Numbered from the stretch's first letter, positions 218 through 61,427 are shown. The stretch is DNA of 64,000 nucleotides from Eledone cirrhosa (GCA_964016885.1 OZ024742.1:97588001-97652000); one strand, 5' to 3'. The notes: a model not told the origin generated them from the sequence alone. Made by a program: numbers and translations.

Positions 218-759
218 ATATATTGTTATAAATTTGGGAGGGTCATGTTGCCATTAAGAAACACACGCACCAGTTGCTTTCACTTCAATTTATTATAATA
301 AATTTATAAATTTAAGAATTTATAAATTTCCGGTTGGTTGGTTGGTTCCACAACCAGATGATTGTTCATATATTGTCAAAGTTCTCTCGTCGCACATTGT
401 GTGACCTCTTCAGTGACTGGGGATTCTTTTCTTTGATTTTGTGCCTTTCCTTTGTTCTGTCCTACGCCATCTTGTTTTGAAAACAAGATGGCGTAGGACA
501 GAACAAAGGAGAGGCACAAATACAAAGAAAAGAATCCCCAGTCACTGAAGAGGTCACAGAATGTGTGACGAAAGAACTTTGACAATATATGAACAATCAT
601 CTGGTTGTGGAACCAACCAACCGGAAATTTATAAATTCATTATAATAAATTTAAGTGAAAGCAACTGGTGCGTGTGTTACTTCGGAAATTTATAAATTCA
701 TTATAATAAATTTAAGTGAAAGCAACTGGTGCGTGTGTTACTTATTGGCAACATGACCC
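218..759. mobile_element. Palindromic PLE pLTR-like element, family A, centre at about 479
   Basis: 218-478 is the reverse complement of 480-759. The right arm has a tandem duplication of about 60 bp. It follows a TA array, and relatives occur at 23881-24085 and 55667-55945. Confidence 0.75.
541..583 (+). ncRNA. Minimal type I hammerhead ribozyme (mirror copy 375-417 on minus strand has GAAA>GAGA)
   Basis: gtca-CTGAAGA-g-gtcac(agaatgt)gtgac-GAAA-gaac-TT-tgac: stem I gtca/tgac and stem II gtcac/gtgac. Confidence 0.7.
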
Positions 760-2700
760 TTAGTTCTCTGCAGAATACGCTATCGAGATACGATCTGGAT
801 GACCCAATGCGGTCCACATTGGCACATTCGGGTGATCCAGTCGATACCTGTCAGACAGTTCAAAACGTCTGAGCAGGTTGGTGAAGCTCTCGCACCCTCC
901 TCCCCTATCCACTAGCCCCACATGATCCCAGCGTGCATCTAAGATACCGTTCCAGTCGCCCACTAACACTAAAGAGCGGGACATTCCAAGAAAGGTCTCT
1001 AGACGTCTGAAGAAATCTGGCCGCCCTGCCCCTGTTGGGGCATAGACGGCTACTAGCCTGAAAGCATTGCCTTTGCTGCCGGTCACGGCCAGCACCACCG
1101 ACTTACCTTCTGGGTTCAGGAAGATGGCCCATATCGCGAGATCCAAGCCTCTCCGAAAAAGGACGGCAACTCCTCCCCCCAATCCTGGACGGCTGGGAGA
1201 TGGGTATACATCGTAGCCACCGAAGATCGATGTGAAGGCCCGTGCCTCGGAGATTTTGGTTTCACTGATGGCCACCACATCTATGTATAGTGACCTGAGG
1301 TCATTGAGCAGGTGACCCTGCTTCCAAGATGACCCCAGGCCACGTGCATTTATACTGCCTATTCTGGTGATGGTGGTGGTGTTGCTTCAAGTTTCCTTGC
1401 TGCCTTTACGCCTCTTTGTATACCTTCGCTTTTGGAGAATGAATCTAAGGGTTTTTTTGTTTTTGTGACAGACCGTTTCCTACTTCACTCCCGCCTCAAA
1501 CTCCATGTCGGATTCTGTGGCGTCTGGGAGGGGTATGTGCTCCACGACTGTTGGTGGTGGTAGTGGAGCCCTCTTCGGGCACGTCGGGTGGGACCTGGGT
1601 CACTTTGACCCTCACAATTTTCTGCCCGCAGTAGGAGGGCACCAAGACTATCTCCTCACTCTTCAGGGTTTCCAAAGAGTGAGACTTTGCTTCCTGGGGG
1701 GTGGCGAAAAGTACGTCTACTGTGGAGTACTCTCTGCCTCGGGTGATGTGGGTTTTGCGTGCCCAGACGCCCCCAATGCCTTTTGGATTTGAACCTCCGT
1801 GGCTCTCTCCACTCGATGTGAGATTTTGCTTACGGTGCAGTAAGTCACCGTCCATAGCTGCTGGTCCTTGAAAAAATCAGGTGGAGGTTTCAGGGAAACT
1901 CTATTTGCGCTTCTTGTCACCATGGCCCTTGCGACTGCCATCTCCTCCTCTGTGACTAACACTGTCTCGATATTTCGGGCGACACCTGCAAAAGAGTGGT
2001 CCATTTTTCAGCAGCACCACTATTGCTGCCGCTACTGGTCTTACTGGTGGTGCTGAGGTCGCTATTACAGGTATCGGTGTCATTGTTGTTGTTTTCGCTG
2101 GTACAGTTGTTGCTGTTGTTGTTTTCGTTGATACTGTTGCTGTTGTTACTGTTATTGTGGCTGTTGTTATTATTGTTGTTTTTGATGATACTGTTCCTAC
2201 TATTATTGTTGTTGTGGTTGTTGTTATTGTCATTGTTATTGTCGTTCTCGACCTTACCGCTGTTATTTTTGTTTTTGCTGTTGTTATTGATGGTGTTGTT
2301 GTTGGTGTTGTTGTTGGTGTTATTGTTGGTGTTGTTTGTGTTAGAAATATTTGTTAATTTTACATCTGTAACAATCTTTTTTTCCTTTGTAATATTTTCG
2401 TTTATATTTACCTCCGCTGGACCTGTTGTTGACATGCTGATAAAGTCTCCCTCTCTCTGTGTTGTCTGACAGCGCTCTCTCTCTTTCTTGTGTTATCCAT
2501 GTTCAAATCTTTTCAAAAAAATATTTTTACACAAATACGAATACGACACCCAGTAAAGGGGTGCCGTATTATTTACTAGTGAACCCCTGTATTAGGTGGG
2601 TCACTTCTAAACGTTTATCAAATTTAAAACTTAATTTATAGGTTTAGAACGGTTGAAAAAGAGGTAAAACGTTGAAAAAAATTGGAGGCGATAAGAAGCG
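760..2700 (-). mobile_element. 5' part of a Tx1/L1-like LINE: degenerate Asn-rich ORF1 and APE endonuclease
   Basis: ORF 760-1278 has APE motifs (ISET, GGGVAVLF, LVAVYAP, LVGDWN). Upstream ORF pieces 1496-2435 resemble ORF1. Confidence 0.75.
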
Positions 2701-2734
2701 TGGCTTCACCAACAATAATAATAACAATAATAAT

Positions 2735-2922
2735 TGTTTCTACTTTTGGCACACGGCCAGCAATTATCCCAGTGTATTACTGGTACTTTATTTTATCGAC
2801 CCCGCAAGAATGAAAGGCAAAGTTAACCTCGGCGGGATTTGAACTCAGACCATAAAGGGGCATAACTCTTTGCTGCAAAGCATAGCGTCCGACCCTCTAC
2901 CGATACTGCCAATCCACCGCCC
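2735..2922 (-). mobile_element. tRNA-derived SINE (octopus-type family)
   Basis: Box A/B-like tggcagtatcggt...gagttcaaatccc followed by the body gccgaggttaactttgcctttcat...gataaaataaagtaccagt, which recurs many times in the window. Confidence 0.75.
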
Positions 2923-2944
2923 TGATAACAATAATAATACATTC

Positions 2945-58017: not shown

Positions 58018-58179
58018 CTATTAAAAAATTCATCATTTTACGATCGTTTCTAGGATATATATGTGTGTTGGTATGTATATCATACCTTCATGTATATATA
58101 TATATATATATTTTAAAAAATAACAGATTAAAGTTTAAGCAAAGAATCGCTGCTTTCACCCTTAACGGGATCTTCTGTT

Positions 58180-60707
58180 ATATATGTATATATATATATA
58201 TATATATGTATATATATATATATATGTATATATATATGTATATATATATATATGTATATATATATGTATATATATATATATGTATATATATATGTATATA
58301 TATATATATGTATATATATATGTATATATATATGTATATATATATATATATATATATATATATATATATATATATATATATATATGTATATATATATATA
58401 TGTATATATATATATATATATATATATATATGTATATATGTATATATATATATATATGTATATATATGTATATATATATATATGTATGTATATATATGTA
58501 TGTATATATATGTATATATATATATATATATGTATATATATATATATATATGTATATGTATATATATATATATATATATGTATATATATATATATATATA
58601 TGTATGTATATATATATATATATATGTATACATATATATATATATGTATGTATATATATGTATACATATATATATATATGTATGTATATATATGTATATA
58701 TATATATATATATGTATATATATATGTATGTATATATATATGTATATATAAATATATGTATATATATATGTATATGTATATATATATGTATATATAAATA
58801 TATGTATATATATATATATATATGTATATATATATATATGTATATATGTATATATATATATATGTATATATATATATGTATATATATATATGTATATATA
58901 TATATATGTATATATATATATGTATATATATATATATGTATATATATGTATATATGTATATATATGTATATATATATATGTATATATATGTATATATATA
59001 TGTATATATATATATATAAATGTATATATATATGTATATATATATATATACATATAAAATATTAAACAAATAATGAATAAACAATTCCTTATATTAAACA
59101 AAAAAAGTTCATTATTTAACGATCGTTTCTAGGATATATATGTGTTAGAATTGGTATGCATATTCAACAGATCTATGTACAAAATTATACAAAATTATAC
59201 AAATTATCAAGATTAAATATATATATGTATATATATATATATGTGTATATATATGTATATATATATATATGTGTATATATATGTATATATATATATATAT
59301 GTATATATATGTATATATATATATGTGTATATATATATGTATATATATATCTGTGTATATATATATATGTATATATATATATATAAATGTATATATATAT
59401 GTATATATATATATATATGTGTATATATATATATGTATATATATATATATATGTATATATATATATGTATATATATATATCTGTGTATATATATATATGT
59501 ATATATATATATGTATATATATATATCTGTGTATATATATATATGTATATATATATATATATGTATATATATATATGTATATATGTATATGTGTATATAT
59601 ATATATGTATATATATATATATATATGTATATATATATATGTATATATGTATATATATATATGTATATATATATGTATATATATATATGTATATATATAT
59701 ATGTATATATGTATATATATATATGTATATATGTATATATATATGTATATATATATGTATATATATATGTATATATATATATGTATATATATATGTATAT
59801 ATATATATGTATATATATATATGTATATGTAGATATATATATGTATATATATATATATGTAGATATATATGTATATATATATATGTATATATATATATAT
59901 GTATATATGTATATATATATGTATATATATATGTATATATATATATATGTATATATATATATATGTATATATGTATATATATATGTATATATATATGTAT
60001 ATATATATGTATATATATATATATGTATATATGTATATGTAGATATATATATGTATATGTAGATATATATATGTATATATATGTATATATATATATGTAT
60101 ATGTAGATATATATATGTATATATATGTATATATATATATATATGTATATATATATATGTATATATATATATATATATATGTATATATATATATGTATAT
60201 ATATATATGTATATATATATATATATATGTATATATATATATATATGTATATATATATGTATATATATATGTATATGTATATATATATGTATATATATAT
60301 ATATATGTATATATATATATATGTATATATATATATATATGTATATATATATATATATGTATATATATATATATGTATATATATATATATATATATGTAT
60401 ATATATATATATGTATATATATATATGTATATATGTATATATATATATGTATATATATATATGTATATATGTATATATATACATGTATATATATGTATAT
60501 ATGTATATATATATATATGTATATACATATATATATATATATATATATATGTATATACATATATATATATATGTATATATATATATATATATGTATATGT
60601 ATATATATATGTATATGTATATGTATATATATGTATATATATATGTATATGTATGTATATATATATGTATATATATGTATATGTATATATATGTATATAT
60701 ATATATA
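58180..60707. repeat. Large (TA)nTG arrays interrupted by a family-B fragment at 59053-59220
   Basis: Read directly from sequence; the fragment matches 15326-15492. Confidence 0.92.
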
Positions 60708-60911
60708 GTATTAGTTATACTATTTATGGTTATGTAAACACAAAACCTTAAGCAGTTGTAAGTATTTTACACACACCCTAAATAGTGGTAGGCAGTAATG
60801 TATTACTACCTTATTACCAGTAAGTTAAGTAGCTCAATGTAAAAACATCAGATGATTTACAGAGCAGTTATATGAAATATAAGAATCAAAGAACTGTTCA
60901 AAACATTATTG

Positions 60912-60958
60912 TGCTTACAGCTGTTTCCTCCAAACCGAGGTTTGGATTCTTCGGAGCA
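60912..60958 (-). ncRNA. Minimal type I hammerhead in a pLTR-like insert (60708-61427)
   Basis: Reverse complement reads tgct-CCGAAGA-a-tccaaacc(tc)ggtttgga-g-GAAA-CAGCTG-TA-agca; U4>C variant. Confidence 0.7.
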
Positions 60959-61427
60959 ATTTATTAATGCATGGACAGTTATATGACCTCCTTTTCAGCC
61001 GAGAGACATACCAATACATATTCAAACATTGATACATATTCAAACATTGTGGGTCAACATTCATTACAGAATTTAGAGTGGCAGTACACACTTCGAGATT
61101 ACATTTATATTAATAGGTACAATCAAAAATCAAAGATATAGGTTAAAGTACAACATGAAGATAAGTGGTTATATAGTGCAAATGTTATATGTGTGGCACG
61201 CATGTGCGTCTTGTTTATATAGTGTGGCAGAGAGATATGTGTGGTAGAGGCACTTAGGTAGGTAAATAAGAGTGTTAGGTTGGTAGATCTGGTGGCAAAG
61301 TCTTTATATGATTGATGTAGTCTATGTGTGGAGAAATATTATAAGCATTAAAGATAGTGCAAGCATTAAAAGTGTTATAAGTATTGGAGATGCACAGCGC
61401 AGGGATGTCAAGTAATTCATGTAATTC

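What the first reader, a model, noticed from the sequence alone, without database searches (positions are those of the whole stretch)
218..61427. System of short palindromic hammerhead-ribozyme elements targeted to (TA)n arrays
Seen: at least six unrelated sequence families share the layout (TA)n / unique tail of about 55-130 bp / arm / inverted arm / (TA)n (218-759 lacking its tail, 15195-15738, 23881-24085, 27838-28206, 33770-34035, 55343-55560, 56260-56984, plus the larger 5508-9320). Most carry CUGANGA...GAAA-N4-7-UH cores closed by a complementary stem I, so both strands can encode a ribozyme. Established: Penelope-like elements carry minimal type I hammerheads in their pLTRs and generate inverted pLTR copies. 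Inference: these are non-coding mini-elements (retrozyme-like or solo-pLTR hairpins) mobilised by PLE RT and GIY-YIG, whose decayed genes also occur here. Their diversity and density, about ten loci in 64 kb, suggest a large uncatalogued ribozyme population.
Basis: partly seen in the sequence, partly recalled or inferred. Interest (0 to 1): 0.85.

Follow-up and report, generated by a model that had tools for sequence, protein, structure and literature searches.

The report
Palindromic stumps of Penelope retrotransposons
The small hammerhead-bearing palindromes are mostly the cut-down ends of ordinary Penelope-like jumping genes that insert into TA repeats, with the mirror-image half likely built anew at each insertion; only one family, a gene-less 540-base tandem unit with no hammerhead, looks like a true mini-parasite of these elements.

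Summary
The layout and the hammerhead motifs are real: 7 descriptor hits against 0.3 in shuffles. The eight loci belong to seven families, and six loci carry a hammerhead. They are not a separate class of mini-element. Genome-wide, each family has a fixed 3' end on (TA)n, an inverted arm starting at a family-fixed distance from that end, and a variable centre. Longer copies of five families run into Penelope-like RT and/or GIY-YIG coding sequence. One is an intact 812-aa ORF with Hydra-clade motifs whose ends are 99-100% identical to the window copy. This is the published 'inverted pLTR + pLTR + tail' insertion form. A transcript of a whole palindrome is predicted to fold into one long hairpin that abolishes the ribozyme fold. 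Two extras: 5' break points pile up just upstream of the hammerhead, not at its cut site (p about 0.001-0.004, two families). Family F is an ORF-less, hammerhead-less ~540-nt unit found in tandems, a true non-autonomous candidate. Family D has no ORF link yet. Cleavage and expression are untested. Earlier scan notes report the same pattern in other genomes.

The parts
218..759 (+). Family A stump (Neptune-like PLE end): inverted arm plus sense arm with a 61-bp tandem duplication; 3' tail missing, followed by a LINE fragment
541..583 (+). Family A minimal type I hammerhead motif (helix I 4 bp, helix II 6 bp); the mirror copy has GAGA instead of GAAA
5508..9320 (+). Family G rearranged PLE copy: ~620-bp inverted 5' arm, internal pieces including the C-terminus of the endonuclease (6128-6235), sense 3' end
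5562..5612 (-). Family G hammerhead motif in the inverted arm (helix I 8 bp)
9135..9185 (+). Family G hammerhead motif in the sense arm (helix I 8 bp)
11435..11695 (+). Decayed GIY-YIG endonuclease fragment of a PLE
   Evidence: Pfam GIY-YIG E 0.011, below cut-off; tblastn to family A protein E 2e-6
15195..15738 (-). Family B stump (Hydra-motif PLE): 131-bp tail, sense pLTR to about -337, inverted pLTR; 100% identical to the 3' end of an intact element elsewhere in the genome
15390..15524 (-). Family B hammerhead motif with a 116-nt helix II region (mirror copy 15540-15674 +)
23881..24085 (+). Family A stump: 75-bp arms plus 55-bp tail; stops before the hammerhead
27839..28204 (-). Family C stump: 77-bp tail, short sense arm to -172, inverted arm to about -250
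28067..28157 (+). Family C hammerhead variant with core CUGAAAGA (one extra base), in the inverted arm only
33770..34035 (-). Family D stump: 62-bp tail, hammerhead 33923-33865 (-), weaker mirror copy from 33941 (+); no coding partner found
36313..36642 (+). Decayed PLE RT/thumb fragment
   Evidence: tblastn with family B protein, 40% identity, E 3e-11
55343..55560 (-). Family E stump (Hydra-motif PLE): 66-bp tail, 75-bp arms, hammerhead motifs 55476-55447 (-) and 55493-55522 (+)
55668..55923 (+). Older decayed family A copy, hammerhead core damaged
56260..56984 (-). Family F: truncated copy of an ORF-less ~540-nt tandem unit, 95-bp tail plus inverted arm, no hammerhead
59054..59225 (+). Lone inverted arm of family B (positions -131 to -303); an older fragment lies at 58023-58132

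Best explanation
These palindromes are stump-sized insertions of the hammerhead-bearing terminal repeat (pLTR) of several endonuclease-encoding Penelope-like retrotransposons, and each mirror half is likely made during insertion rather than inherited as a unit. SHOWN: fixed 3' end on (TA)n; a second fixed point 55-131 bp inside where the inverted arm starts; variable centres; continuity with RT/GIY-YIG genes in five families. INFERRED, from published PLE biochemistry: the GIY-YIG domain nicks both strands of a TA array. Reverse transcription starts at two internal sites of the RNA, the outer site giving the arm with the tail and the inner site the arm without it. The two cDNAs, primed from opposite strands, are joined head to head where they stop. 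They often stop at a family-specific point just 5' of the hammerhead, which I infer is the 5' end of a transcript starting in the pLTR, so the template is uncleaved RNA. The stumps are likely dead on arrival: a transcript across one would form a long hairpin, not a ribozyme. F is likely a gene-less passenger that uses the same machinery.
For: Inverted arm starts at a family-fixed offset: A 55 (14 of 25; palindromic query, biased), B 131 (12 of 25), C 77 (9 of 25), D 57-62 (13 of 25), E 66 (12 of 30), F 95 (8 of 20), G 88-93 (at least 7 of 20). A TA run follows the 3' end in 24/25, 24/25, 23/25, 15/25, 24/30, 10/20 and 15/20. Coding links: B intact 812-aa ORF in L177 and L180, in partial tandem, with RWR, DKT, YRDD, CxCX5C, GIY-YIG, CxxC and CxH motifs; Atlas neighbours 0.96-0.99, some clusters with GIY-YIG, RVT_1 or HTH_animal members. 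A: 625-aa RT-EN frame in L189, Pfam RVT_1 E 5.5e-4 and GIY-YIG E 1e-3, both below cut-off. E: RT-EN frames ending about 120 bp before the hammerhead. G: EN frame in L182. C: EN fragment 3.7 kb upstream in L203, inverted in L202. Tail-only samples: B 9 of 24 truncated copies stop at -333 to -346 (core starts at -330; p 0.001); C 8 of 26 stop at -244 to -253 (core at -217; p 0.004); none stops at the predicted cut sites -195 and -136. Helix I probability is 0.00 in all 8 full-palindrome folds that hold a core, against 0.85-0.99 for A and B alone. Literature: inverted 5'-truncated copy, optional tail and TA bias (PMC8557442, PMC3846280); both strands cleaved and extended, two RT start sites defining the tail, hammerhead cleavage not needed (PMC11167929); paired min-HHRs on opposite strands 100-700 bp apart (PMC4209133).
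Against: D has no coding link in the 25 loci or the 30 loci and one 4.2-kb region; 30 further D loci were fetched but not analysed. F has no coding link. Pfam gave no relevant family for the B protein and the PDB no relative, so its class rests on motifs and Atlas neighbours; no tree was built. Tails (55-131 bp) are longer than the published 30-40 bp. The transcript-start reading has no RNA support; an RT stall at the hammerhead structure fits the pile-up too, and the offsets differ (7, 34 and about 60 nt in B, C, G). The hammerhead core varied less than downstream sequence in A (1/154 vs 124/2800, p 0.021) and G (0/220 vs 42/2440, p 0.045), not in C, D or E, and more in B. This could hint at selection, but it is confounded by query choice and AT-rich indel-prone flanks. 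For C, D and E, folds of the motif alone did not give a clean hammerhead either.
Confidence: 0.85

Rival explanations
1. The palindromes are independent non-coding mini-elements (retrozyme-like) that are transcribed, self-cleave on both strands and are re-mobilised as units by PLE enzymes.
For: Many copies of similar size (B about 540 bp, C 370-425 bp). D has no ORF link and is mostly short. Core slightly more conserved than flanks in A and G. Published non-LTR retrozymes are PLE-derived (bioRxiv 10.64898/2026.07.22.740005).
Against: Centre junctions differ among near-identical B and C copies. About half of unbiased copies have no inverted arm. Five families continue into ORFs. The hairpin abolishes the ribozyme fold. 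No tandem hammerhead-bearing monomer arrays were seen in the family analyses.
Confidence: 0.08
2. The inverted arm arises by self-priming or snap-back of a single cDNA (or antisense template) at small palindromes at the pLTR 5' end, as proposed for rotifer Penelopes, rather than from two RT start sites.
For: Perfect head-to-head centres with 0-5 nt overlap are common. PMC3846280 argues for self-priming. Both arms often end at the same boundary.
Against: In many copies the inverted arm reaches further 5' than the sense arm (B: L319, L322, L328; C: L335, L346, L334), which a simple fold-back of the sense cDNA cannot give without a later deletion. F uses both end points in direct orientation too (18 of 30 at about 443, 12 at about 545).
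Confidence: 0.2
3. Solo-pLTR palindromes are left by recombination or deletion of the interior of full-length insertions.
For: Full-length PLEs are described as inverted pLTR + pLTR + ORF + pLTR, so recombination between direct pLTRs would leave this shape; solo pLTRs were ascribed to recombination or deletion in PMC3846280.
Against: Sense arms show a continuous range of 5' ends (114-510 in B). Stumps outnumber long copies (24 of 30) even in family B, whose copies are 99-100% identical.
Confidence: 0.1
4. Assembly artefacts at TA arrays.
For: B arms are 99.7% identical and lie beside long TA arrays.
Against: Arms are 79-97% identical in the other families. The fixed asymmetry recurs at dozens of loci. 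Short-read contigs show the TA/arm junction.
Confidence: 0.02

Closest known systems
Insertion architecture of endonuclease-bearing Penelope-like elements: inverted 5'-truncated pLTR + pLTR + optional tail (Arkhipova et al. 2013, PMC3846280; Craig et al. 2021, PMC8557442; Frangieh et al. 2024, PMC11167929)
   Same: Head-to-head inverted copy at the 5' end, tail on one side only, strong 5' truncation, partial tandems, AT-rich targets, hammerhead in the pLTR.
   Different: Tails are 55-131 bp rather than 30-40 bp; stumps with no coding sequence dominate; break points pile up just 5' of the hammerhead.
Hydra clade of PLEs (Craig et al. 2021, PMC8557442, section 11)
   Same: Family B protein has RWR (for RWK), DKT, no GxKF/Y, CxCX5C linker, C-terminal GIY-YIG, CxxC and CxH; E and G frames also show CxCX5C; TA targeting; hammerhead present.
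   Different: Element B is about 6.5 kb with a 3.9-kb low-complexity 3' region (published: generally under 3 kb); its hammerhead has a 116-nt helix II region; phylogeny not tested.
Neptune-type PLEs
   Same: [quoted passage not shown]
   Different: Only a partial ORF (625 aa) was seen; clade not tested by tree.
Minimal type I hammerheads of metazoan PLEs (Cervera and de la Pena 2014, PMC4209133)
   Same: Short helix I, palindromic helix III region, many heterogeneous families per genome, pairs on opposite strands 100-700 bp apart ascribed to truncated PLEs.
   Different: Family C has an extra base in the core (CUGAAAGA); B, C and D have long helix II regions (39-116 nt).
Animal non-LTR retrozymes (bioRxiv 10.64898/2026.07.22.740005) and non-autonomous Chlamys elements such as MRC1 (PMC8557442)
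   Same: Family F is ORF-less, about 540 nt, in head-to-tail partial tandems with PLE-type ends.
   Different: F has no hammerhead, unlike retrozymes; the hammerhead-bearing families here are inverted stumps, not tandem monomers.

Membership tests
EN+ Penelope-like element (families A, B, C, E, G) | Single ORF with RT and C-terminal GIY-YIG linked to the same ends | tested here: met
   B intact 812 aa; A RVT_1 and GIY-YIG, weak Pfam; E RT+EN frames; G and C endonuclease part only
EN+ Penelope-like element (families A, B, C, E, G) | pLTR formed by partial tandem | tested here: met
   B: 3' end followed directly by 5' region and ORF in L180 and L360; not checked for the other four
EN+ Penelope-like element (families A, B, C, E, G) | Inverted 5'-truncated copy and optional tail | tested here: met
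EN+ Penelope-like element (families A, B, C, E, G) | Type I hammerhead motif in the pLTR | tested here: met
   (sequence motif only)
EN+ Penelope-like element (families A, B, C, E, G) | RT groups with PLE/TERT in a phylogeny | not tested
   no reference set at hand; Atlas neighbours only
EN+ Penelope-like element (family D) | Linked RT/GIY-YIG ORF | tested here: inconclusive
   none in the loci; only 1.5 kb of flank seen, while B and C have over 3.5 kb between ORF and end
Hydra clade (family B) | RWK, DKT, no GxKF/Y, CxCX5C linker, CxxC and CxH near the C-terminus | tested here: met
   RWR 37, DKT 115, CNCRNKANC 673, CRLC 771, CNH 799, no GxKF/Y (definition)
Hydra clade (family B) | CCHH motif absent from the endonuclease | not tested
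   not aligned to reference endonucleases
Hydra clade (family B) | Insertion into (TA)n | tested here: met
   24 of 25
Hydra clade (family B) | Generally short (under 3 kb); a tendency, not a strict criterion | tested here: not met
   6,480 bp
Non-LTR retrozyme | Tandem monomers each with a complete type I hammerhead | tested here: not met
   hammerhead families are inverted stumps; the tandem family F has no hammerhead
Non-LTR retrozyme | Circular RNA expression | not testable with these tools
   no RNA holder listed
Non-autonomous PLE derivative (family F) | No ORF, defined 5' start, PLE-type ends and tandems | tested here: met
   longest frame 75 aa; 26 of 30 starts directly follow a previous unit's 3' end; two end points
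Non-autonomous PLE derivative (family F) | 3' end shared with an autonomous partner | tested here: inconclusive
   no partner among the fetched loci; no genome-wide partner search
Active hammerhead ribozyme | Core CUGANGA/GAAA/UH with paired helices, pairing kept across variants | tested here: met
   about 20 motif types with different but complementary helix I; no formal covariation count; most D copies have a U-U pair in helix I
Active hammerhead ribozyme | Self-cleavage | not testable with these tools
   needs an in vitro assay; 5' break points do not fall at the cut site

The most novel reading that the evidence does not exclude
The stumps are a genomic read-out of the unresolved PLE insertion step: twin cDNAs from two RT start sites run off a fixed RNA 5' end just upstream of an uncleaved hammerhead and are joined head to head. 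The intact, 99-100% identical Hydra-motif element B (6.5 kb, 131-nt tail, 116-nt helix II region) makes this directly testable. In addition, family F is a ribozyme-free, ORF-less 540-nt tandem parasite of PLE machinery, with many copies (1,530-2,392 first-look candidates, not copy numbers), in a likely cephalopod genome.
Probability: 0.4. Interest if true: 0.5.

Novelty: new member of a known kind. Interest (0 to 1): 0.3.

Why it matters
It removes the need for a new class of palindromic ribozyme element: the hairpins are by-products of PLE insertion, and annotation pipelines could mistake them for MITEs or microRNA precursors (the Rfam hits here were miRNA models below threshold). What remains useful is (i) break-point statistics bearing on how PLEs make inverted ends and on whether the hammerhead cuts the template, (ii) a young, intact Hydra-motif PLE as a candidate for biochemistry, and (iii) family F as a hammerhead-free non-autonomous element.

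Tried and rejected
Rfam scans: no hammerhead family among the listed matches (one search listed 150 of 325); hits were miRNA models on hairpins and TA repeats, all below gathering score; one twister-P1 match in F (17 bits, E 6.2) was not reproduced in a better F copy and was rejected. The repeat finder was swamped by TA arrays and replaced by masked BLAST. Expression: no RNA holder listed, no evidence either way; two of four contig sets laid gave nothing. Pfam and PDB for the B protein: nothing relevant. F as tRNA-derived: ARAGORN found 0 genes in 6 loci; a B-box-like motif (consensus recalled) is in 27 of 30 copies, but a T6 run lies before it; left as a weak lead. Relaxed hammerhead cores in F: none closes into a motif. 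D coding partner: not found; the 30 loci were not analysed. Selection on the core: mixed and confounded. Break-point pile-ups in D and E coincide with the query length and were not used; G (10 of 16 at 251-263, query 221) was not re-sampled. The idea that the inverted arm starts at the hammerhead cut site was rejected here: arm starts 55, 131, 77, 57-62, 66, about 90 against cut sites 213, 195, 136, 95, 104, 135. Literature searches listed no paper devoted to octopus hammerheads or to an F-like element; subscription journals, Repbase/Dfam and paper supplements were not seen.

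
Full report
SETTING. The window is G000:C3:97588001-97652000 of a 3.0-Gb assembly. Its size and TA-microsatellite load suggest an octopus-type cephalopod; that is recalled knowledge, not tested. Besides TA arrays it holds LINE fragments.

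OBSERVATION. Masked self-BLAST recovers every listed palindrome, with arm identities from 79% (D) to 99.7% (B). 218-759, 23881-24085 and 55668-55923 are one family (A), so there are seven families, A-G. A minimal type I hammerhead descriptor gives 7 hits in the window against a mean of 0.3 (max 1) in 40 shuffles. Six of the eight listed loci hold at least one motif, counting C's variant core CUGAAAGA, which the descriptor misses. 23881-24085 stops before the motif, and F has none. Both arms pass only in B and G. Rfam hammerhead models were not among the listed matches. Decayed PLE coding pieces lie at 11435-11695, 36313-36642, 51422-51577 and 6128-6235.

COPIES ELSEWHERE. Each family was searched in the own genome; only the 40 best candidates are scored and 20-30 loci per family were fetched. 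First-look candidates ranged from 69 (B) to about 2,400 (D, F, G); these are not copy numbers. For A, five duplicate loci were dropped, leaving 25. Every family has a fixed 3' end on (TA)n and a second fixed point, 55-131 bp inside, where the inverted arm begins, while the centre varies (counts in the For line). With tail-only queries, which do not favour palindromes, 16 of 30 B loci and 15 of 30 C loci have an inverted arm, and the junction letters differ from copy to copy. The palindrome therefore does not spread as a unit.

CODING PARTNERS. B: L177 and L180 hold an uninterrupted 812-aa ORF. L180 is a partial tandem (inverted piece, pLTR, 5' region, ORF, 3.9-kb low-complexity 3' region, pLTR), and its end is 100% identical to 15195-15533. 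The protein shows the Hydra-clade marks listed in Craig et al. 2021 (section 11 read): RWR, DKT, CxCX5C, CxxC, CxH, no GxKF/Y. Pfam and PDB gave nothing relevant. Atlas neighbours score 0.96-0.99, several clusters carrying GIY-YIG, RVT_1 or HTH_animal in part of their members. A continues into a 625-aa RT-EN frame with a CX4CXXC linker. E continues into RT-EN frames, G into an EN frame, and C reaches an EN fragment 3.7 kb upstream. D showed no partner (the loci were not analysed).

FAMILY F. The unit is about 540 nt, with a longest frame of 75 aa. Of 30 loci found with its 5' part, 26 start directly after a previous unit's 3' end plus a short TA run; 18 end at about position 443 (no tail) and 12 at about 545 (with tail). 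No hammerhead, tRNA or Rfam family was found. It has PLE-type ends but no gene, so it is a non-autonomous candidate; its partner is unknown.

THE RIBOZYME. Across 324 three-kb loci (1.02 Mb, enriched by the searches and partly overlapping) the descriptor found 114 motifs of about 20 types against 0 and 1 in two shuffles. Helix I differs in sequence yet stays complementary, and the helix III region is mostly palindromic. This matches Cervera and de la Pena 2014 (parts 1-2 of 4 read), who report thousands of minimal hammerheads per animal genome, pairs on opposite strands 100-700 bp apart ascribed to truncated PLEs, and low in vitro activity. In the eight full-palindrome folds that contain a core, helix I has probability 0.00. 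Alone, A and B fold correctly (0.85-0.99), while C, D and E give mixed or non-hammerhead folds. On either strand the antisense arm is transcribed first (from the layout). Core conservation against downstream sequence was higher in A (p 0.021) and G (p 0.045), not significant in C, D and E, and reversed in B; I regard this as inconclusive. Within-family covariation was not counted formally.

BREAK POINTS. In tail-only samples 9 of 24 truncated B copies stop at -333 to -346 (core at -330) and 8 of 26 C copies stop at -244 to -253 (core at -217; one duplicate pair counted once). Scan-statistic p is 0.001 and 0.004 against an exponential model, with window widths chosen after seeing the data. Inverted arms often end at the same places. 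None stops at the predicted cut sites (-195, -136). G shows a similar cluster (10 of 16 at 251-263).

MECHANISM. Frangieh et al. 2024 (parts 1-2 of 4 read) showed that a Poseidon protein cleaves and extends both strands of AT-rich DNA, starts at two internal RNA sites that define the tail, and does not need hammerhead cleavage. Arkhipova et al. 2013 (passages) and Craig et al. 2021 (passages and section 11) describe the inverted pLTR, the optional tail and TA bias. I infer that the two arms are cDNAs from the two start sites, primed on opposite strands, stopping at the RNA 5' end or stalling just past the hammerhead, then joined. The stumps would be inert. The identity of the elements as PLE ends is well supported; the twin-cDNA step and the transcript-start reading are inferred, with snap-back priming as the main rival.

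COMPARISON AND VERDICT. They work like, and for A, B, C, E and G pass the tested criteria of, endonuclease-bearing PLEs. They fail the retrozyme criterion of tandem hammerhead monomers (Li et al. 2026 preprint, part 1 of 5 read). Earlier scan notes on other genomes, seen only after my reading was fixed, report the same stumps and the same pile-up; they are not independent evidence. Supplements and repeat databases were not seen and may already list these families. Verdict: new members of a known kind, interest 0.3; the F element and the break-point pattern are the parts worth following.

Noticed in passing
L180:1798-8277 (G000:C14, within 7794600-7803200): Intact, very young Hydra-motif PLE of 6.5 kb with a 3.9-kb low-complexity TA-rich 3' region; some apparent TA 'satellite' in this genome may be element sequence. 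Family C also has over 3.5 kb of low-complexity sequence between its endonuclease and its end.
   Followed up: partly
window 28072-28079; family C loci L087-L110: Hammerhead core with one extra base (CUGAAAGA) shared by the family; 19 of 20 copies keep the majority core.
   Followed up: partly
L176-L179, L202, L360, L362: Long copies of B and C show internal inversions of 1-4.5 kb, with the inverted arm again starting at the fixed inner site or at the tail end.
   Followed up: partly
window 49343-49981: Another inverted repeat (188-bp arms, 94%) enclosing TA arrays and a smaller inner palindrome; family not identified.
   Followed up: no
window 35763-36075: Diverged palindrome with no TA flanks, just upstream of the PLE RT fragment at 36313-36642; related short pieces at 17809-17876 and 19909-19989.
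   Followed up: no
window 12957-15131: 724-aa uninterrupted LINE reverse-transcriptase frame on the minus strand (RTE-like by recall), with several related decayed copies in the window.
   Followed up: no
flanks of fetched loci: About 15 further hammerhead motif types unrelated to families A-G, often in the same TA arrays; insertions nest in one another.
   Followed up: partly
L146:1084-1260 (family F 5' part): B-box-like motif in 27 of 30 copies within a foldable 5' region, but preceded by a T6 run; no tRNA call.
   Followed up: partly
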